This document shows positions 36,496 through 58,874 of a stretch of 62,567 bases of DNA, in pieces. The DNA is from a virus: the IMG/VR virus record IMGVR_UViG_3300045988_155882. The stretch is one strand, 5' to 3'. The position numbers and the translations under genes are program-made. The notes beneath the pieces are model-generated. The model ran no database searches, was not told where the DNA came from, and worked only from the letters and a program-made list of their open reading frames with translations. Position 1 is the first letter of the stretch. Each line of letters starts with the position of its first letter.

Positions 36496-36593
36496 CAGTG
36501 CTAAACAATTATAAGAGTGGGCAACTCTTATGTAATCCGTAAGGGTTATTTTTATGCCCAATATAGGCATAGGTATATCGTATTTTAGATATA

Positions 36594-36673
36594 GCACACG
36601 AACGGTGGGGTAACGGAAACGTCCCCGAAATTAATCTTATGATTGTTTAGTAGCCGTGACCGTGTGCTTTTTT
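36594..36673 (+). terminator. Leader terminator/attenuator immediately upstream of the antirepressor start codon
   Basis: GCACACG (36594-36600) pairs with CGTGTGC (36661-36667), followed by T6; internal GGGG...GAAA...CCCC hairpin. Confidence 0.45.
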
Positions 36674-36678
36674 ATTTT

Positions 36679-37542
36679 ATGCTAAACAATCAGAAATCGG
36701 ATGCTTCTGTCATCCAAGTGTTCAATTCACCACAATTCGGTGAAATAAGAACAGCAGGAACGAGTGAAGAACCATTGTTCTGCCTTTCCGATGTATGTTC
36801 GGTATTAGGGCTTAGACAAGGTGATGTAAAACAAAGACTTGACGATGGGGTGGTTTCAACCCAACCCATAATAGACGCACTCGGAAGAGAACAACAAGCA
36901 AACTTTGTAAATGAGGACGGTTTGTATGATGTTATCCTTGATAGCAGAAAACCGCAAGCGAAAGCATTTCGTAAATGGGTAACTTCCGAAGTCCTCCCTG
37001 CAATCCGCAAGACAGGCGGCTACCTCGCCACCAAGCAGGACGACACTCCCGAAGAAATCATGGCACGTGCTCTAACCATCGCACAAGCCACCCTTGCCAA
37101 GAGAGAGGAACGGTTAAAGCAGCTTGAAGCCCAAACGGAGCAACAGCAAGCCACCATTAAACTGCAAGACAAGGAAATCAAGGAGGCTGCTCCGAAAGTC
37201 AGCTACTACGACAACCATCTGTTGAGCGTCAATGCCATGACAACCACTCAAATCTCAAAAGAGATAGGGATGTCGGCAGAAAAACTGAACAACAAACTGA
37301 AAGAACTTGGAATACAGTTCAAACAGTCGGGGCAGTGGCTCTTAAAATCACCATACGACAAATGGGGTATGCATGAAACGAGAACCAATATTTTCACAAG
37401 TGAAAGAGGTAATACCCATACCAACACATATACTGTATGGACGCAGAAAGGTAGACGCTTCATTATTGCTCTATATGAAAATGATTGGGACGTGAAGAAA
37501 GCCATTAAGCAGATAAAAGGAGAATTAGAACCCGCTGCGTAA
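36679..37542 (+). CDS. BRO-N / KilAC antirepressor
   Basis: VFNSPQFGEIRTAG...PLFCLSDVCSVLGL...DSRKPQAKAFRKWVTSEVLPAIRKTGGY (BRO-N-like); C-terminal KilAC-like region. Confidence 0.75.
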   Translation: MLNNQKSDASVIQVFNSPQFGEIRTAGTSEEPLFCLSDVCSVLGLRQGDVKQRLDDGVVSTQPIIDALGREQQANFVNEDGLYDVILDSRKPQAKAFRKWVTSEVLPAIRKTGGYLATKQDDTPEEIMARALTIAQATLAKREERLKQLEAQTEQQQATIKLQDKEIKEAAPKVSYYDNHLLSVNAMTTTQISKEIGMSAEKLNNKLKELGIQFKQSGQWLLKSPYDKWGMHETRTNIFTSERGNTHTNTYTVWTQKGRRFIIALYENDWDVKKAIKQIKGELEPAA

Positions 37543-47209: not shown

Positions 47210-48415
47210 TTACTTCTTAAAAACATTTACATAATCAATAACTTTCCGATTAGCTTTATCTACTTTTCGCATGTCAAAATGGATATAGATGTCAGTCGTT
47301 GTGCTGTTCGCCCAACTATGCCCAAGCGCGTGGGCGATTACCTCTTTGGGGACATCGAGTTCTGCCGCTACCGTGGCCCATGTGTGTCTTGCCCAATATG
47401 AGGACAAATCAGGGAATAAAGGATTTCTACTCTTTTTCCCTCCCAATCCCTTCCTTTCTGTCTCTCCAATCTGTTTTAACCCTATTCCCATACGATGTAG
47501 GAAATCCTTGTAATTTCCGTAGTCATCCATTATATTAAGAAGATAATCCTTCCCTTTGTATTTCTCAATTATAGCCTGCGCTTCCGGTTCTACTTTAATA
47601 CTGTATAATTTCCCCGTCTTAGCTCTTTTATATTCAAAACGACCATTTACCAATGCAGAATGTTTTGCGTTAAACAAATCGGCTGCATTTACTCCTATGA
47701 GATAGAACATGAGCATGAACATATCCCTATATCTAATCTGGTATTCCTCACATGGATAATCTCTCAATAACCTAAGTTGTTCTGCTGTAAGGCTGCGTTT
47801 TCGGGTTTCCTCTTTCTTTATTGAAAACCTTCTGAATGGATACAATGTTGTGTACTCCTCATCAATGGCGTAGTTGAATACACTACGTATGTTCCGTAAA
47901 TGAATAGCGTAGGCATTAACCTTCATCGTCTTTGCCATCCACGCTTCAAAGTTTTCCAGCCATGACTTATCCATGCTCTCAAAAGTACAATGACTATCGT
48001 ATTCCTCAATCTTGTTTCTTGTGGTTGTATATATAGACTTAGTTCCCTGATTGGTTTTCTTGGAAACGAATTCATCAAGATAATAGAGAAACGTCTTTTG
48101 GTTTTCAACCTTGCTACTTATAGCGTCCTCTATCAACTTCTTCAAAGCTTTGTCTGTAGTTGATTTCAACTTTTCTTGTTGCTCTAAAGTAAATATTACT
48201 GTTTCCGCCTTGTTTATTATTCCACGGGCAACTATATTCCTCGGCTTGTAATTTTGTGCACGCACAGAATATTCATTCCCATTCCATTCTTTTTCCGATG
48301 CACTTAGCTGCGTAGCTATCATTATTTGTTTGTTGTGGAATACATTCAACTTTATCGGATAAGTGCCATCTTTTTTTTGCCTTCTTTTATCAAGGTAGAA
48401 TTTAACCGTTGCCAT
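47210..48415 (-). CDS. int: tyrosine recombinase / phage integrase
   Basis: ARHTWATVAAELDVPKEVIAHALGHSWANSTTTDIYIHF catalytic-domain pattern; 401 aa. Confidence 0.85.
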   Translation of the reverse strand: MATVKFYLDKRRQKKDGTYPIKLNVFHNKQIMIATQLSASEKEWNGNEYSVRAQNYKPRNIVARGIINKAETVIFTLEQQEKLKSTTDKALKKLIEDAISSKVENQKTFLYYLDEFVSKKTNQGTKSIYTTTRNKIEEYDSHCTFESMDKSWLENFEAWMAKTMKVNAYAIHLRNIRSVFNYAIDEEYTTLYPFRRFSIKKEETRKRSLTAEQLRLLRDYPCEEYQIRYRDMFMLMFYLIGVNAADLFNAKHSALVNGRFEYKRAKTGKLYSIKVEPEAQAIIEKYKGKDYLLNIMDDYGNYKDFLHRMGIGLKQIGETERKGLGGKKSRNPLFPDLSSYWARHTWATVAAELDVPKEVIAHALGHSWANSTTTDIYIHFDMRKVDKANRKVIDYVNVFKK

Positions 48416-48941: not shown

Positions 48942-49406
48942 TTATTTTCTTCCATGGTTATATATATCACCGAATTTAGTCTCTATGAAAAATATATAGA
49001 AAAGCTTACCTCTTTGAAGTCCAACGAAAGACCTATTATCCCCTGAAGCACGAAACGCATGAAGGTCGACTTCCCTTGTTACAAAAGAAGGCAATTTATC
49101 TTTCGGCTTAATGTCATTGTACGGAATAGGCTCCATGCCATATGAATGTCTATGTGACAACCGTATTCCATCCCATCCAAGCTCACACAATTTTTGAAGT
49201 CTTAATATAAAGCTAAGAAGGAACGAATGGTCTTTACAGTCTTTTATAGACTCATCCGATAGGTATTTAAAAGAGAACAAGGGATGGTTTATTTCAGATA
49301 AATCACTTATTTCCCCTACGCTAATCTTATTGGAGTTTATAATACTCTGTATAAAAGAAAGCCCATCATCGTTTTCTTTTTTATTGTTTTTGCCCTTTCT
49401 TCTCAT
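48942..49406 (-). CDS. unknown protein, candidate toxin partner of the Panacea-domain gene (154 aa)
   Basis: ATGA-type overlap with upstream DUF4065 gene; no family recognised. Confidence 0.55.
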   Translation of the reverse strand: MRRKGKNNKKENDDGLSFIQSIINSNKISVGEISDLSEINHPLFSFKYLSDESIKDCKDHSFLLSFILRLQKLCELGWDGIRLSHRHSYGMEPIPYNDIKPKDKLPSFVTREVDLHAFRASGDNRSFVGLQRGKLFYIFFIETKFGDIYNHGRK

Positions 49407-49852
49407 TTCTTCAACCTGGTTTTAAAGAATGTCTTAATCTTAACCTTTGTTATCACATTCCCTTCTCCGGTTTTAGTGCTTTTCCACGGATGTTCGTTAT
49501 GGGTCATATTCATAAGCCCAAGTGCAGAATATACTCCATACACCTTAAATACTTCATTGAATAACGCTTCTTCTTTTTTGTTTTCAAATTCAAATTCAAA
49601 TTCAGAATCTAAATGAATGCCATTTTTACCGTTACTCTTATATTCATCATATACAGAAGGTACTACTGGACCGTACATCCATGCTTCGATTTCTTCATCA
49701 AACAATGGAGTCCCAAAATAGGCTAAATGAAAACCTTGCTGATAGTACAACATCTTTTGGAGCTTCATGTTTGTCATAAACTCTTCTCCGCAACTAACTT
49801 GTTCTGCTTTCTTTATAAGAACCTTTGCTATATCTGATGCCTTGTATGCCAT
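49403..49852 (-). CDS. DUF4065 / Panacea-domain (SocA/PanA-like) antitoxin
   Basis: MKLQKMLYYQQGFHLAYFGTPLFDEEIEAWMYGPVVPSVYDEYK pattern. Confidence 0.75.
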   Translation of the reverse strand: MAYKASDIAKVLIKKAEQVSCGEEFMTNMKLQKMLYYQQGFHLAYFGTPLFDEEIEAWMYGPVVPSVYDEYKSNGKNGIHLDSEFEFEFENKKEEALFNEVFKVYGVYSALGLMNMTHNEHPWKSTKTGEGNVITKVKIKTFFKTRLKK

Positions 49853-54278: not shown

Positions 54279-54388
54279 TTCCTCTTAGCTCAGCCAGGCA
54301 GAGCATCGCTATGGTTACTTGTTCGAAGGTTTAGTATCCGGTAATTTCCGGTTAGCGAAGGTCGCACGTTCGAGTCGTGCAGAGGGAG
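54279..54388 (+). tRNA. tRNA-derived gene with a 43-nt insert in place of the 7-nt anticodon loop
   Basis: TTCCTCT/AGAGGGA acceptor, GCTC-AGCCAGGCA-GAGC D-arm, TCGCT/AGCGA anticodon stem, AGGTC variable loop, GCACG-TTCGAGT-CGTGC T-arm; the loop holds two hairpins (54317-54330, 54338-54351). Confidence 0.6.
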
Positions 54389-54399
54389 CAAAATACATA

Positions 54400-54770
54400 G
54401 TTCTTTGACGTATTGAATGTGAAATAAGGTTTAAGTATTTGATATTTAGACTTATTTCAATATAACCGAGGATTACGGATAGCGGAAACGCGGGGACTCC
54501 GTATAGGCTTGGTTATCGTGATTGTCTCTTCGCACCGAAATGTCCTACGGTAGAGAGTATGCGGTTTGGGCGCCCGTATCGCAGGAGACAAAGGTCATAA
54601 AGACAACATAAGCGTCCGATACAGTCTTAAATCGGTATAAAGTATGCGGTGGTAATGAAAGGCGCCCGTACACGCTTATTATATATACTCCCTTCCCGTC
54701 AAATTCGGGCACGCTGAAAGCTAAACACGTATTGTTGCGTTGAAGGGAGCCAATATTTATTAATCTTTAA
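54400..54770 (+). ncRNA. Candidate structured RNA / long leader (~370 nt)
   Basis: Perfect 8-9-bp helices (54608-15/54672-79; 54688-95/54742-49), GAAA loop, duplicated GTATGCGGT..GGCGCCCGTA motif; no ORF. Confidence 0.45.
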
Positions 54771-54782
54771 ATATATAGAATT

Positions 54783-56351: not shown

Positions 56352-56515
56352 ATTTCTTAATTTTTAGTTTGGCGACACAAAATTAAGAAAATCCCCTGAT
56401 AATAACGTGATGTTGCCAATCGAATTGGTTCAGGGGAACAAAGCCTGTAAGGGTGAATAATTCATGATAGCTTTTTAATGTAGACAGTCCCGTCCACGTG
56501 CTGGTCGGGGAACAC

Positions 56516-56619
56516 TGCGACGTGGCGGAATGGTAGACGTAGCACTCTATGATAGGAATGTCAAACCTTAGATGTGCGGAGCTTGACAACTCGTCCCGGT
56601 TCGAGTCCGGGTGTCGCAA
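56516..56619 (+). tRNA. class-II-like (Leu-type D-arm, long variable arm) tRNA-derived gene with elongated anticodon arm
   Basis: TGCGACG/TGTCGCA acceptor, TG-GCGG-AATGGTAG-ACGT D-arm, CCCGG-TTCGAGT-CCGGG T-arm; GCAC/GTGC stem encloses 28 nt that extend the helix (TCTA/TAGA, AGG/CCT) to a 9-nt loop. Confidence 0.55.
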
Positions 56620-56713
56620 CATCTTCACTACAGATGAAGTATTTGTTTAGTTGTAGCCGGGCGGTCTGTGAAGATAGTCCGGTTTTTATTTGAAACCCAT
56701 TAATAACAATTAT

Positions 56714-57190
56714 ATGAAAACATTACAATTAAGTGAACAAAAAGCCCGTGAACTATATCGGAGCGGTTCAAAAGAACTAAAAACAGTATTGGAAGAATCC
56801 TTTGGAGAGGATTTCTTTTCACAAGACGTTACAGAAAGAGTGAAAACCTACCTTGATGCTTGTCACGAGTTGGGAAGGGAACCACTCGATGAGAAAAAGC
56901 TATTGGAGTTAGGCCTGACGGAACACGATATTGCTTATCAAAAGCTGGCTATCGTTACGGAAGCTCTAAATGGAGGTCAGAAACTTAATGTATGCGATGC
57001 TAACGTGGAACGTTGGTATCCGTGGTTCAAGCCTAATGGGTCTCCTTCCTCTTTCGCTTTCGACGGTTCGTATTGCGGTGATGCGTATGCGTTTGCGGGT
57101 AGCGGGTCTCGCCTTTGTTTGAAAAGCGAAAAGCTTTCCAATTATTGCGGGAAGCAATTCATTGATTTGTGGAAACAATTTATTCTATAA
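56714..57190 (+). CDS. DGR variable protein 1 (158 aa)
   Basis: C-terminal VR1; paralog of the next gene. Confidence 0.8.
   Translation: MKTLQLSEQKARELYRSGSKELKTVLEESFGEDFFSQDVTERVKTYLDACHELGREPLDEKKLLELGLTEHDIAYQKLAIVTEALNGGQKLNVCDANVERWYPWFKPNGSPSSFAFDGSYCGDAYAFAGSGSRLCLKSEKLSNYCGKQFIDLWKQFIL
57040..57119 (+). repeat. DGR variable repeat VR1
   Basis: 80 nt aligned to TR: 11 mismatches, 10 at TR adenines. Confidence 0.85.
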
Positions 57191-57208
57191 CCCTATAAAC
57201 TTACAATT

Positions 57209-57682
57209 ATGACTTTAAATGTAGATAAAAAGAGCGCTTTAAAGGCTTGGAGAGAAGCGGACAATAAAGGAAAGCAGATGCTTGAAAATCTATACGGCAA
57301 AGAAATATTTGCCAATCAAAACGTAATGGATAGAATCAAAACGTTTGAAGACGCAATGGAAGAAACAGGAAGAAAAGGTGTCCCTGATTTTTCAGATTTA
57401 CCCAAAGACATGCGCAGGCATTTCATTGCGTTATATAAAATGGAAGTTATTACGGAAGCTCTGAATGAAGGCTGGAAAGCAGACTGGGATAACTCGGATG
57501 AGAACAAGTATTATCCCTATTTCATTATGTCTCCTTCCTCTTTCGCTTTCCGCGATTCGTGTTACGATGATGCGTCTGCGGTTGCGGGTAGCGGGTCTCG
57601 CCTATGTTGTAAAACACGCGAACTTGCGGAATATTCGGCAAAACAATTTATTGACATTTGGAAAGACATCCAGATAGGATAA
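57209..57682 (+). CDS. DGR variable protein 2 (157 aa)
   Basis: C-terminal VR2. Confidence 0.8.
   Translation: MTLNVDKKSALKAWREADNKGKQMLENLYGKEIFANQNVMDRIKTFEDAMEETGRKGVPDFSDLPKDMRRHFIALYKMEVITEALNEGWKADWDNSDENKYYPYFIMSPSSFAFRDSCYDDASAVAGSGSRLCCKTRELAEYSAKQFIDIWKDIQIG
57528..57615 (+). repeat. DGR variable repeat VR2
   Basis: 88 nt aligned to TR: 9 mismatches, all at TR adenines. Confidence 0.9.
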
Positions 57683-57704
57683 GCATACAAAGGTCGTCTG
57701 CCCT

Positions 57705-57792
57705 TGTCTCCTTCCTCTTTCGCTTTCCACGATTCGAATTACGATAATGCGTATGCGAATGCAGGTAGCAGGTCTCGCCTATGTTGTAAAAC
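57705..57792 (+). repeat. DGR template repeat (TR)
   Basis: A-rich copy (…HDSNYDNAYANAGSRS… if translated); 95 nt upstream of RT. Confidence 0.9.
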
Positions 57793-57887
57793 TTCAAAGG
57801 GCAGAAACCTCACCTCTTGGTGGAAAACAACAATTCAAACGGTGTTGGTAGGTTTAACCCGAAAACTCTTATTAGAAAACAAAGGCT

Positions 57888-58874
57888 ATGAAACGCTTTG
57901 GGAATTTATATCATCGCATCTATGATATAGATAATCTTTATCTTGCTTATTCTAAAGCTAAAAAGGGCAAAGGAAAAACGTATGGAGTTATTCAGTTTGA
58001 GAAAGATTTGGATAACAACATACTTTCCTTGCACAAAGAATTGTCGGAAAGAAGCTATATCACTTCTCAATACACGACTTTCATTATACATGACCCAAAG
58101 GAGCGTGAGATATACAGGCTACCATTTCGTGACCGTGTTGTGCATCACGCTATAATGAACATCCTTGAAGATATATGGACACCGATTTTCATTTCACACA
58201 CTTATTCCTGTATCAAAGGAAAAGGCATTCATGGAGTGGTTAAACATTTGAAGAAAGACCTGAAAGATGCTGATGGAACAAAATATTGTCTGAAAATGGA
58301 TATTCGCAAATATTATCCGTCAATAGACCACTCCATACTGAAACGTATCATACGTAAGAAAATAAAAGACATAAAGGTGCTTGCCCTTCTGGATGGTATT
58401 ATAGATTCAGCACCGGGTGTTCCTATCGGTAACTATCTTTCCCAATTCTTTGCGAATCTATATCTTTCTTATTTCGACCATTGGATTAAGGAAGAAAAGC
58501 GAATGCCATATTATTACAGATATGCCGATGACATGGTGATACTTTCCAGCAGCAAGAAAGAGTTACACAGTATTCTTCTTGAAATCAACTCATATCTTAA
58601 TGAGAAACTGCACCTGCAATTAAAGGGCAACTATCAGTTTTTTCCGGTAGATAGCAGGGGAATAGATTTCGTGGGATACGTATTTTTTCATACGCATACA
58701 TTGATGCGGAAATCCATAAAGAAAAACTTTTGCCGTAAAGTATCTGCATTAAACAAAAAGAATATAACCCCGCATGATTACAAAATGGCAATCTGTTCAT
58801 GGCTGGGTTGGGCGAAGCATTGTAATTCTAAGCACCTTATTAAAAAGATTATTAAGAATGAAAAGATTCAGTGA
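57888..58874 (+). CDS. DGR-type reverse transcriptase
   Basis: VPIGNYLSQFFANLYL and YYRYADDMVIL motifs; 328 aa. Confidence 0.85.
   Translation: MKRFGNLYHRIYDIDNLYLAYSKAKKGKGKTYGVIQFEKDLDNNILSLHKELSERSYITSQYTTFIIHDPKEREIYRLPFRDRVVHHAIMNILEDIWTPIFISHTYSCIKGKGIHGVVKHLKKDLKDADGTKYCLKMDIRKYYPSIDHSILKRIIRKKIKDIKVLALLDGIIDSAPGVPIGNYLSQFFANLYLSYFDHWIKEEKRMPYYYRYADDMVILSSSKKELHSILLEINSYLNEKLHLQLKGNYQFFPVDSRGIDFVGYVFFHTHTLMRKSIKKNFCRKVSALNKKNITPHDYKMAICSWLGWAKHCNSKHLIKKIIKNEKIQ

What the first reader, a model, noticed from the sequence alone, without database searches (positions are those of the whole stretch)
56516..56619. Second tRNA-derived gene (class-II-like) with an elongated anticodon arm, directly upstream of the DGR
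The D-arm (TG-GCGG-AATGGTAG-ACGT) looks like tRNA-Leu. The T-arm and 7-bp acceptor stem are canonical and a long variable region is present. The anticodon stem GCAC/GTGC encloses 28 nt (56546-56573). These continue the helix (TCTA/TAGA, then AGG/CCT) with a 1-nt and a 4-nt bulge and end in a 9-nt loop AATGTCAAA. If the 5' 21 nt of the insert were removed, the remaining loop CTTAGAT would be a textbook Leu(UAG) loop. That reading is compatible with an intron-like element but is not proof. The helix-bulge-helix layout is only loosely reminiscent of a BHB splice motif, because the bulge sizes are wrong.
Basis: seen in the sequence. Interest (0 to 1): 0.65.

Follow-up and report, generated by a model that had tools for sequence, protein, structure and literature searches.

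The report
Phage tRNA-Leu look-alike with swapped anticodon arm
This Bacteroides phage carries a gene shaped like a leucine tRNA whose anticodon arm is replaced by a longer hairpin, and it belongs to a large, apparently undescribed family of gut-phage tRNA look-alikes that share one tRNA body but carry interchangeable inner modules.

Summary
Positions 56516-56619 (+) encode a tRNA-Leu-like body: a 7-bp acceptor stem, a Leu-type D arm, a canonical T arm and discriminator A. A 4-bp stem encloses a 28-nt insert. ARAGORN at default settings and Rfam find no tRNA there.

Comparison changes the interpretation. About 115 sibling phage contigs carry the same body at the same site with at least four unrelated inner segments (51-137 nt). 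ARAGORN's intron mode calls these copies Leu, His, Pyl, Phe or Ser. Other gut phages carry near-identical D and T arms with different, fully compensated acceptor stems and 15 or more inner-module families. One copy has no anticodon arm at all. The window's module recurs in a different acceptor stem, with covariation in the stem enclosing the insert.

I found no uninterrupted allele, no splicing enzyme and no Rfam family. The DGR next door is coincidental.

Most likely this is a non-decoding tRNA-Leu mimic, matured like a tRNA and possibly leucylated, that presents an exchangeable structured module. Its function is unknown. A spliced tRNA-Leu(UAG) is a minority alternative, kept alive by the invariant CTTAGAT.

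The parts
56516..56619 (+). The whole tRNA-Leu-like gene (104 nt, from acceptor position 1 to discriminator A).
   Evidence: The identical sequence occurs in 6 viral loci, and close variants in about 100 more.
56516..56522 (+). Acceptor stem, 5' strand (TGCGACG). It pairs with 56612-56618.
   Evidence: 5 of 7 pairs change on both sides across homologues (TGCGACA/TGTCGCA versus GAAGGAA/TTCCTTC).
56525..56540 (+). Leu-type D arm: GCG-GAATGGTAGA-CGT, a 3-bp stem with the G18-G19 dinucleotide.
   Evidence: It is nearly identical to the D arm of ordinary phage tRNA-Leu genes found in the same scan.
56542..56577 (+). Elongated arm in place of the anticodon arm. H1 is GCAC/GTGC, H2 is TCTA/TAGA, H3 is AGG/CCT, with 1-nt and 4-nt bulges and the 9-nt loop AATGTCAAA.
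   Evidence: H1 covaries (GC, GU, AU and CG pair types). H3 gains a pair in L157 (AGGG/CCCT, read from the alignment). H2 is weakened in L157/L183 (A-A at one pair).
56567..56573 (+). CTTAGAT: a 7-mer with the form of a Leu(UAG) anticodon loop. In the consensus fold, 4 of its bases are paired in H2.
   Evidence: It is invariant in all 17 distinct homologues, including those in a different acceptor stem.
56578..56593 (+). Variable region: 3-bp stem GAG/CTC with the 8-nt loop CTTGACAA. TTGACA (56583-56588) is complementary to TGTCAA (56559-56564) in the arm loop.
   Evidence: The 6-bp loop-loop complementarity has p of about 0.002 by loop shuffling, a test chosen after seeing it. Five bp are kept in L157/L183. 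It is broken centrally in the L084 variant.
56595..56611 (+). T arm: CCCGG-TTCGAGT-CCGGG.
   Evidence: The same T arm occurs in ordinary phage tRNA-Leu genes and in all the abnormal bodies.
56612..56619 (+). Acceptor stem 3' strand (TGTCGCA) plus discriminator A56619. It is followed by CAT, so no CCA is encoded.
   Evidence: The discriminator is A in every Leu-like abnormal body listed.
56488..56510 (+). Leader hairpin 6 nt upstream of the mature 5' end.
   Evidence: It is conserved with the gene whatever the inner module. Every abnormal gene of the wider family has some stable hairpin 4-10 nt upstream.
56440..56487 (+). Start of the inserted unit: a small GNRA hairpin (CCTGTAAGGG, 56444-56453) and an A/T-rich stretch where the promoter is presumed to lie (inferred, not shown).
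   Evidence: The stretch is absent from the sibling L002. The sigma-70-type scan finds no promoter, but that scan does not cover Bacteroides promoters.
56623..56639 (+). Small trailer hairpin directly after the gene.
   Evidence: It is conserved downstream of all inner-module forms.
56655..56689 (+). Strong hairpin (GCCGGGCGGTCTGTGAAGATAGTCCGG) plus a T run: the likely terminator of the unit.
   Evidence: It is also present in L002, which lacks the gene. The same hairpin motif recurs beside tRNA-like genes in related phages.

Best explanation
The gene encodes a non-decoding tRNA-Leu mimic. It is one member of a modular 'shell plus cargo' family of Bacteroides-phage RNAs.

Shown:
- It is a free-standing small unit, about 205 bp present or absent between sibling phages.
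- It folds into a tRNA body with acceptor stem, Leu-type D arm, T arm and discriminator A.
- The 17-nt anticodon stem-loop is replaced by a 36-nt irregular hairpin.
- The body is kept by compensatory change, while the segment between D arm and T arm is exchanged between phages as a cassette.

Inferred:
- The transcript starts upstream of the leader hairpin.
- RNase P cuts at 56516. The 3' end is trimmed after A56619 and CCA is added.
- Every known LeuRS identity feature that can be read from sequence is kept (A73, D-loop architecture), so the RNA is probably leucylated.
- With the anticodon bases paired inside an 11-bp arm, it cannot read codons.
- It therefore acts in trans as a tRNA-shaped molecule. 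Either it is a decoy or sponge for a host factor that recognises the tRNA-Leu body, for example a tRNA-cleaving defence nuclease. Or it is a stable, tRNA-processed chassis that displays the exchangeable module.

I put about 0.5 on 'non-decoding tRNA-like RNA retained intact'. Within that, roughly half goes to a role in phage-host conflict (decoy or chassis for a decoy).
For: - Normal tRNA criteria fail only in the anticodon region.
- The consensus fold and covariation support the body and the enclosing stem.
- The same acceptor stem and leader carry four or more unrelated inner segments at one locus: 101 A-type, 11 B-type and 4 other loci.
- The wider scan finds the same D and T arms with six acceptor-stem variants, all compensated, and 15 or more inner families. 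One has only 15 nt and no anticodon arm (L213).
- The same module occurs in different acceptor stems with significant similarity. Window versus L157 and B versus L285 are each reached by 0 of 500 shuffles. Different module families are not similar to each other.
- The discriminator is A in every Leu-like abnormal body.
- The arm loop is complementary to the variable loop.
- No uninterrupted allele exists.
- The loci fetched from the window's own phage group contain no ordinary tRNA (0 in 117 loci). Related contigs that carry the wider family hold arrays of non-canonical tRNA-like genes, with an ordinary tRNA only here and there.
- The host is Bacteroides.
- tRNA-directed conflict is documented in comparable systems: a tRNA ligase next to a DGR target in Bacteroides 'Quimbyviridae' (PMC8008677), and Septu cleaving the variable loop of tRNA-Tyr (PMC13096335, abstract).
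Against: - There are no expression, end-mapping or aminoacylation data. Everything about maturation and charging is inferred.
- The invariant CTTAGAT has no explanation in this model other than ancestry or a protein contact.
- The siblings are very close relatives, so invariance of most of the insert says little.
- One variant (L084) breaks the proposed loop-loop pairing.
- No binding partner or defence system has been identified.
- A general pseudoknot architecture across module families was not found.
Confidence: 0.5

Rival explanations
1. It is a real tRNA-Leu(UAG) gene interrupted by a short insert at the 5' edge of the anticodon loop. An unknown host or phage activity removes the insert, and the spliced tRNA decodes CUA/CUG.
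For: - CTTAGAT has the exact form of a Leu(UAG) anticodon loop and is invariant in all 17 distinct homologues.
- In L157, removing 22 nt leaves a perfect 5-bp stem plus that loop.
- The bulge-helix-bulge topology is right: a proximal 3'-strand bulge, a 4-bp helix, then a distal 5'-strand bulge.
- The body keeps the Leu identity features.
Against: - In the window itself the stem left after removal is only 4 bp.
- Bulge sizes are 1 and 4, not 3 and 3.
- The sister alleles B, C and D at the same locus give Phe, Leu(taa) or Ser readings, or none.
- No RNA ligase or endonuclease was recognised among about 70 ORFs.
- No Rfam intron or ribozyme matched.
- No intronless allele exists anywhere searched.
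- The insert's loop is conserved and pairs with the variable loop.
- Bacteria are not known to splice protein-dependent tRNA introns (established knowledge).
Confidence: 0.13
2. It is a decaying tRNA pseudogene or a selfish DNA cassette with no RNA-level function. The constant D and T arms merely act as homology anchors for recombination between phages.
For: - Presence/absence polymorphism (L002 lacks it; L106 keeps only the 3' part).
- Some variants weaken the enclosing stem (A-C and U-C mismatches).
- The combinatorial shuffling is what recombination at conserved arms would produce.
Against: - Acceptor stems differ at 5-7 positions on both strands yet stay fully paired. That requires selection on the RNA.
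- T loop, D loop and discriminator are invariant.
- Modules are conserved across different acceptor stems.
- Each gene keeps its own leader hairpin and terminator.
- The minus-strand ORF that overlaps the gene is broken in forms A' and B, so the conservation is not protein-coding.
Confidence: 0.1
3. It is a cis-acting processing or expression module. The tRNA-like fold recruits RNase P or RNase Z to cut a longer transcript (tRNA punctuation), setting the ends or the stability of neighbouring RNAs.
For: - Many family members lie 15-30 nt upstream of the ATG of unrelated small ORFs, behind a promoter-like TG-rich stretch and a hairpin.
- RNase P is known to process phage regulatory RNAs and tRNA-like elements in mRNAs (PMC4919922).
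Against: - In the window the gene is separated from the next ORF (ATG at about 56714) by a trailer hairpin and a strong terminator.
- Punctuation explains neither the conserved Leu identity features nor the diversity and conservation of the inner modules.
Confidence: 0.1
4. It is a trans-acting antisense or immunity RNA of the P1 c4 / P4 CI kind: a tRNA-like, RNase P-processed RNA whose exposed loops pair with phage transcripts. The inner module would then set immunity specificity.
For: - The phage is temperate, with an integrase and anti-repressor genes, and already has a c4-2 RNA in front of an ant gene.
- Module swapping among near-identical phages resembles heteroimmunity.
- c4 is an RNase P substrate (PMC4919922, ref. 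206).
Against: - No complementary site of 12 nt or more exists in the window.
- Complementary 9-11-mers occur equally in A-type and B-type phages, so no target covaries with the module.
- The loops that would be exposed are instead complementary to each other.
Confidence: 0.07

Closest known systems
Bacterial and phage elongator tRNA-Leu (class II tRNA)
   Same: It has a 7-bp acceptor stem, U8, a 3-bp D stem with loop GAAUGGUAGA (G18-G19), a TTCGAGT T loop, discriminator A73 and an extra arm between the anticodon arm and the T arm. Ordinary phage tRNA-Leu genes with the same T arm and nearly the same D arm were recovered in the same scan.
   Different: There is no 5-bp stem with a 7-nt anticodon loop. 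A 36-nt, three-helix arm takes its place. tRNA finders reject the gene. The acceptor stem is AU-rich and starts with U1-A72. No CCA is encoded.
Intron-containing tRNAs: archaeal/eukaryal BHB introns and bacterial group I introns in anticodon loops
   Same: Extra sequence sits inside the anticodon arm. The order of helices and bulges resembles a relaxed BHB.
   Different: Bulges are 1 and 4 nt. The position is 31/32, not 37/38. The host is bacterial (Bacteroides). The insert is 19-28 nt against more than 200 nt for group I introns, and Rfam finds no intron. No intronless allele exists. Sister alleles replace the whole inner region, variable arm included.
Engineered 'tRNA scaffold' for recombinant RNA expression (Ponchon and Dardel; cited in PMC3753655)
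   Same: The architecture is the same: acceptor, D and T arms are kept, and the anticodon arm is replaced by an arbitrary structured RNA. The chimera is then processed and stabilised like a tRNA.
   Different: That is a laboratory design. Here the arrangement is natural, and I found no report of a natural equivalent. Whether the phage RNA is processed and stable has not been tested.
Phage small stable RNAs of the tRNA region (T4 RNAC and RNAD) and RNase P-processed phage regulators (P1/P7 c4)
   Same: These are phage-encoded, non-decoding small RNAs linked to tRNA genes or tRNA-type processing. The T4 RNAs still have no known role (PMC3014915). c4 is cut by RNase P (PMC4919922).
   Different: There is no sequence or Rfam relationship. 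c4-2 is found elsewhere in this window (36593-36670). None of those RNAs is a full tRNA-Leu body with exchangeable modules.
tRNA mimics: the tmRNA tRNA-like domain, bacterial Y RNA (YrlA), mascRNA, plant-virus TLS
   Same: They use the tRNA acceptor/T-arm/elbow for recognition by tRNA enzymes while the anticodon function is lost or replaced.
   Different: tmRNA needs G3-U70, an ORF and pseudoknots; ARAGORN's tmRNA search gives only sub-threshold noise. YrlA has its ends at the anticodon-equivalent side. A TLS lies at the 3' end of a viral genome. Rfam matches none of them here.

Membership tests
Canonical decoding tRNA (tRNA-Leu) | Cloverleaf body: 7-bp acceptor stem, D arm with G18-G19, T arm with a TTCRA loop. 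| tested here: met
   Covariation is seen in the acceptor stem. D and T arms match ordinary phage tRNA-Leu genes.
Canonical decoding tRNA (tRNA-Leu) | 5-bp anticodon stem closing a 7-nt loop with U33 and a free anticodon. | tested here: not met
   ARAGORN at default finds 0 genes. Rfam RF00005 gives no hit at E<=10. A 4-bp stem encloses 28 nt, and UAGA of the putative loop is paired in the consensus fold.
Canonical decoding tRNA (tRNA-Leu) | Leucine identity: discriminator A73 and a Leu-type D-loop/tertiary core; actual charging by LeuRS. | not testable with these tools
   A73 and the D loop are present and invariant. Aminoacylation needs an experiment.
tRNA with a protein-spliced (BHB) intron | Bulge-helix-bulge motif with two 3-nt bulges separated by 4 bp. 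| tested here: not met
   The 4-bp helix is present, but the bulges are 1 and 4 nt. The helix is weakened in L157/L183.
tRNA with a protein-spliced (BHB) intron | Splicing endonuclease and RNA ligase available. | tested here: inconclusive
   None was recognised among about 70 window ORFs, but many ORFs have no family hit. The host genome was not examined.
tRNA with a protein-spliced (BHB) intron | The same mature anticodon in orthologous copies, and intronless alleles or paralogues. | tested here: not met
   Orthologous copies are read as Leu, His, Pyl, Phe or Ser. IMG/VR holds no intronless allele. The only 4 metagenome matches lie in an unrelated stretch of DNA where ARAGORN finds no tRNA; by my own reading this is a protein-coding gene.
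Bacterial tRNA with a group I intron | Self-splicing intron with the P1-P9 core, usually more than 200 nt, in the anticodon loop. | tested here: not met
   The insert is 28 nt. Rfam finds no Intron_gpI or any ribozyme in the window or in loci carrying the larger modules.
tmRNA | tRNA-Ala-like domain with G3-U70, a tag ORF and pseudoknots. | tested here: not met
   Pair 3-70 is C-G. ARAGORN at default finds no tmRNA. Only sub-threshold permuted calls appear at ps70.
P1 c4 / P4 CI-type antisense immunity RNA | Loops complementary to target sites in the phage's own transcripts, with specificity covarying with the target. | tested here: inconclusive
   No match of 12 nt or more in the window. Short matches are not associated with module type. 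Only about 10 kb on either side of each sibling locus was available.
Any curated RNA family (Rfam 15) | A covariance-model match at or near the gathering score. | tested here: not met
   The only window hits are c4-2 (36593-36670) and RT-17 (57806-57882).

The most novel reading that the evidence does not exclude
Bacteroides phages use a leucylatable tRNA-Leu body as a natural RNA chassis. Homologous recombination at the invariant D and T arms swaps structured modules (15 or more families, 15-137 nt) into the anticodon position. This creates a cassette system of tRNA-processed decoy or aptamer RNAs used in phage-host or phage-phage conflict. It would be a natural counterpart of the laboratory 'tRNA scaffold'.
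Probability: 0.25. Interest if true: 0.85.

Novelty: new variant of a known kind. Interest (0 to 1): 0.66.

Why it matters
If these RNAs are made and kept intact, they form a sizeable unannotated class of gut-phage non-coding RNA. tRNA finders and Rfam both miss them. The loci fetched from the window's own phage group hold no ordinary tRNA gene. Related contigs of the wider family carry arrays of non-canonical tRNA-like genes with only an occasional ordinary tRNA.

A conserved leucine-tRNA body carrying interchangeable modules would be a natural example of the tRNA-scaffold principle. It would also be a candidate RNA-level player in the tRNA-centred arms race between phages and bacterial defences.

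In practical terms, intron-permissive tRNA annotation of such phages gives spurious and mutually inconsistent anticodons. These include 'Pyl/CTA suppressor' calls that could mislead inference of the genetic code.

Tried and rejected
- **Functional link to the DGR.** Rejected. Many siblings have the gene with no RT or target genes downstream.
- **Remnant of an attP or attB site.** Rejected. The integrase lies 8 kb away, and its homologues sit next to host tRNA-Gly, tRNA-Pro or tRNA-Asp genes, not tRNA-Leu.
- **Protein-coding explanation through the overlapping minus-strand ORF 56383-56628.** Rejected. That frame is shifted in form A' and carries stop codons in form B.
- **Form A as a deletion derivative of the first hairpin of form B** (my own impression by eye). 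Not supported. The alignment score is reached by 226 of 1000 shuffles.
- **A loop-to-variable-region pseudoknot common to all module families.** Not supported by an automated test on about 20 representatives. It holds only for the window's family and, by eye, for family F1.
- **The alternative minimum-free-energy hairpin UGAUA-GGAA-UGUCA**. Not kept in L157, L183 or A', whereas AGG/CCT is kept.
- **An antisense target in cis.** None is associated with module type.
- **Prophage copies in reference genomes.** The 3' half of the body has 0 exact matches in 185,579 species-representative genomes.
- **Cultured phages.** There is no counterpart in INPHARED apart from two unannotated faecal contigs.
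- **Literature.** Nine searches found no description of this class. A survey of candidate structured RNAs in IMG/VR mentions tRNA-like candidates only in general terms (PMC10690425).
Full report
**1. The observation**

- The acceptor stem has 7 bp: TGCGACG pairs with TGTCGCA, with one G-U pair.
- U8-G9 follow, then a Leu-type D arm (GCG-GAATGGTAGA-CGT) and A26.
- A 4-bp stem, GCAC/GTGC, encloses 28 nt (56546-56573).
- Inside the insert, the helix continues as TCTA/TAGA and AGG/CCT, with a 1-nt bulge, a 4-nt bulge and the 9-nt loop AATGTCAAA.
- A 16-nt variable region follows, with a 3-bp stem and an 8-nt loop.
- The T arm is canonical (CCCGG-TTCGAGT-CCGGG), and the discriminator is A.

ARAGORN at default settings finds no tRNA anywhere in the window. 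Rfam gives no tRNA hit for 53.5-57.5 kb even at E<=10. With introns allowed, ARAGORN calls this gene 'tRNA-His(atg), 19-nt intron' and calls the 54.3-kb gene 'tRNA-Arg(ccg), 34-nt intron'. The single-sequence folding energy is not unusual (z = -0.6).

**2. The genome**

The window is a temperate tailed phage.
- It encodes an integrase (47210-48415), small and large terminase subunits, portal, major capsid protein, an amidase and several anti-repressors.
- A c4-2 RNA lies in front of an ant gene. There is an RNase H gene.
- A DGR-type RT lies at 57888-58874, preceded by an RT-17 RNA and two paralogous small genes.
- Integrase homologues at 56-65% identity lie beside host tRNA genes in Bacteroides and related genomes. 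The host is therefore Bacteroides or a close relative.
- Its nearest public relatives are unannotated human-faecal contigs.

**3. Siblings: one body, several inner segments**

An exact-pattern scan of IMG/VR with the T arm plus the 3' acceptor strand returned 109 loci. The conserved leader hairpin returned 86 loci, largely the same ones.

Flanking proteins are 80-100% identical to the window's, so these are close relatives. In them, the same acceptor stem, D arm, T arm, leader hairpin (56488-56510) and trailer are present. The segment between the D arm and the T arm comes in several forms:
- the window's 51-nt form (A) and a 2-nt longer variant (A');
- a 137-nt form (B);
- an 81-nt form (C, in GenBank MT836332);
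- a 56-nt form (D).

Among the oriented loci, 101 carry A or A', 11 carry B and 4 carry something else. One sibling (MT835900) lacks the unit altogether; the missing stretch is about 56440-56645. Another sibling keeps only the 3' part (L106). The RT and its target genes are downstream in only some loci, so the DGR is a neighbour and not a partner.

**4. The intron reading under comparison**

ARAGORN without introns finds no tRNA in any of the 117 loci (1.1 Mb). With introns allowed, it calls homologous copies of this gene Leu(tag) i19, His(atg) i19, Pyl(cta) i21, Phe(gaa) i97, Ser(act) or Leu(taa). The 'anticodon' therefore depends on where the program chooses to cut, and the alleles share none.
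- A pattern requiring the enclosing stem to be followed within 0-3 nt by CTTAGATGTGYGGAGC, which an uninterrupted allele would have, matches nothing in IMG/VR.
- In the metagenome collection it matches only four copies of one unrelated stretch of DNA, where ARAGORN finds no tRNA with or without introns. By my own reading, that stretch is a protein-coding gene.
- About 70 ORFs of the window were scanned against Pfam or PHROGs, and none is an RNA ligase or a splicing-type endonuclease. Many ORFs have no family assignment, so this absence is weak evidence.
- No Rfam intron or ribozyme matches the window or the loci carrying the larger modules.

**5. A much larger family**

The scan returned two kinds of gene.
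- Ordinary phage tRNAs came back, mostly tRNA-Leu. They have GC-rich acceptor stems and a 29-33-nt inner part.
- About 45 abnormal genes also came back, nearly all from human-gut samples. Their D arm is nearly the same (TG-GCGGAATTGGTAGACGC) and their discriminator is A, followed by CA.
  - Their acceptor stems are AU-rich and purine-rich: GAAGGAA, GGAGAAA, GGATAAG, GGGTAAG or GGAGGAA, each fully compensated on the 3' strand.
  - Their inner parts run from 15 nt (L213, no anticodon arm at all) to 137 nt, in many mutually dissimilar families.

The GGATAAG acceptor type alone occurs in 101 loci with seven inner-segment clusters.

The combinations are free in both directions.
- The window's module recurs in the GAAGGAA acceptor type (L157, L183). 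Similarity is significant: 0 of 500 shuffles reach the score.
- Form B recurs in the GGATAAG type (L285), with 105 of 150 identical columns and again 0 of 500 shuffles.
- The window's module is not similar to families F1 or F3b.

D and T arms are thus constant, while acceptor stems and inner modules assort independently. Double recombination at the constant arms is the simplest way to produce this pattern (inference).

**6. Structure of the window's family**

I aligned 17 distinct sequences of the window's family.
- 97% of cells are paired, against 26-44% when partners are slid by 1-3 columns.
- Five of 7 acceptor pairs and two pairs of the enclosing stem change on both sides. The first pair of that stem shows GC, GU, AU and CG types.
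- AGG/CCT becomes AGGG/CCCT in L157 (read from the alignment).
- TCTA/TAGA is weakened in L157 and L183 by changes on the 5' strand only. The 3' strand, including CTTAGAT, is invariant.
- The arm loop (TGTCAA, 56559-64) is complementary over 6 nt to the variable loop (TTGACA, 56583-88). By loop shuffling p is about 0.002, though I chose the test after seeing the match. Five of these pairs are kept in L157 and L183. One variant (L084) breaks the central pair.

I treat this kissing interaction as suggestive only.

**7. Transcription unit**

Every abnormal gene has a stable hairpin 4-10 nt upstream of its 5' end. Many also have a TG-rich, Bacteroides-promoter-like stretch before that hairpin. In the window, a small hairpin and then a strong hairpin with a T run follow the gene. 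It is therefore a self-contained unit. The sigma-70-type scan finds nothing, as expected for Bacteroides. The promoter is inferred, not shown.

In other phages, members often lie 15-30 nt upstream of the ATG of unrelated small ORFs. Neighbouring proteins are ordinary early-region genes (SSB, exonuclease, repressor-like, SPFH) with no recurring RNA enzyme.

**8. Interpretation**

Constant features are the tRNA-Leu body, the invariant T and D loops, the invariant A73 and the compensated acceptor stems. The variable feature is the part that would read codons. The window's own phage group has no ordinary tRNA in the loci fetched. Related contigs of the wider family carry arrays of non-canonical tRNA-like genes with only occasional ordinary tRNAs.

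The most economical reading is a non-decoding tRNA-Leu mimic. It would be processed by the tRNA machinery, and it is probably chargeable, because bacterial LeuRS does not read the anticodon (established knowledge). The inner module is an exchangeable functional or structural unit.

Two functions fit. One is a decoy or sponge for a host factor that recognises tRNA-Leu. tRNA-cleaving defences and phage countermeasures are documented, including in Bacteroides DGR phages (PMC8008677) and for a class II tRNA variable loop (PMC13096335, abstract). The other is a tRNA-processed chassis that displays the module. I cannot separate them.

The spliced-tRNA reading survives as a minority view because CTTAGAT is strictly conserved and L157 would give a perfect Leu(UAG) arm after removal of 22 nt. 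The rivals are a pseudogene or selfish cassette, a processing punctuation element, and a c4/CI-like antisense RNA. They are weighed in the rival section of this report. None is excluded, but each fails to explain part of the pattern.

**9. Comparison with what is known, and novelty**

The body meets the structural criteria of tRNA-Leu except for the anticodon arm. It fails the membership tests for BHB-intron tRNAs, group I-intron tRNAs, tmRNA and every Rfam family.

The closest functional analogies are the engineered tRNA scaffold, the T4 RNAs C and D (role unknown, PMC3014915) and RNase P-processed phage regulators (PMC4919922). Nine literature searches and the INPHARED collection gave no description of this class.

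I rate it a new variant of a known kind (tRNA-like non-coding RNA). Its modular population structure appears not to have been described.

Noticed in passing
window 54279-54389 (+): The 'first' tRNA-like gene is a class I body (acceptor TTCCTCT/AGAGGGA, canonical D and T arms). Its stem TCGCT/AGCGA encloses 44 nt. It is nearly invariant in 72 sibling loci. A second allele keeps the CCGG...CCGG hairpin but changes its loop (TAATTT versus TCTGTGTATT). ARAGORN calls it 'Arg(ccg)' only with introns allowed.
   Followed up: partly
L119 3130-3264, L157 c6301-6421, L192 3225-3358: These are 'double-elbow' tRNA-like genes in related Bacteroides phages. The anticodon loop is replaced by a T-arm-like hairpin (GAGAG-TTCGAGT-CTCTC) followed by a D-arm-like hairpin (CTCT-TAGCTTAACGGA-AGAG), that is, a permuted second tRNA core. 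The window's 54.3-kb insert begins with the same ATGGTT motif and may be a reduced relative.
   Followed up: no
L119 4022-4093, L157 c4411-4482, L223 2212-2283, L213 (67-nt gene): The same phage contigs hold arrays of other non-canonical tRNA-like genes. Some are class I bodies with 4-6-nt 'anticodon' loops. One Leu-like body has only a 15-nt linker and no anticodon arm. Ordinary tRNAs are rare in these contigs.
   Followed up: partly
window 36593-36670 (+) and 36679-37542 (+): An Rfam c4-2 RNA (52.8 bits, above the gathering score) lies directly upstream of an anti-repressor (Ant) gene. This is the P1/P7-type antisense immunity arrangement, here in a Bacteroides phage.
   Followed up: no
window 56714-58874 (+): This is the DGR module: two paralogous small genes (phrog_11581; 56714-57190 and 57209-57682), an RT-17 RNA (57806-57882, 41.5 bits) and the RT (57888-58874). 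The module is present in only some sibling phages.
   Followed up: partly
window 49403-49852 (-) and 48942-49406 (-): A SocA/Panacea-domain antitoxin (Pfam E = 4e-22) lies next to a 154-aa ORF with no family hit. This is possibly a PanA-type toxin-antitoxin pair beside the integrase.
   Followed up: no
window 54400-54780: This stretch downstream of the 54.3-kb tRNA-like gene is poor in ORFs. It contains a repeated motif, AGTATGCGGT...GGCGCCCGTA, at 54556-54578 and 54641-54670. It may be another non-coding RNA or a protein-binding repeat.
   Followed up: no
window 56663-56677 (+); many loci: The hairpin core GGTCTGTGAAGATAG (a GNRA-type GUGA loop) is the window's terminator-like hairpin. It recurs 183 times in the fetched phage loci, and about half of the copies lie next to Leu-like tRNA-like genes. 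In those cases it is usually followed by a T run just 5-10 nt before the gene start.
   Followed up: partly
window 47210-48415 (-); L229-L242: Integrase homologues in Bacteroides and other Bacteroidales genomes lie about 150 bp downstream of host tRNA genes (mostly Gly-CCC, also Pro, Asp and Asn). The phage therefore probably integrates into a host tRNA gene unrelated to the tRNA-like genes it carries.
   Followed up: partly
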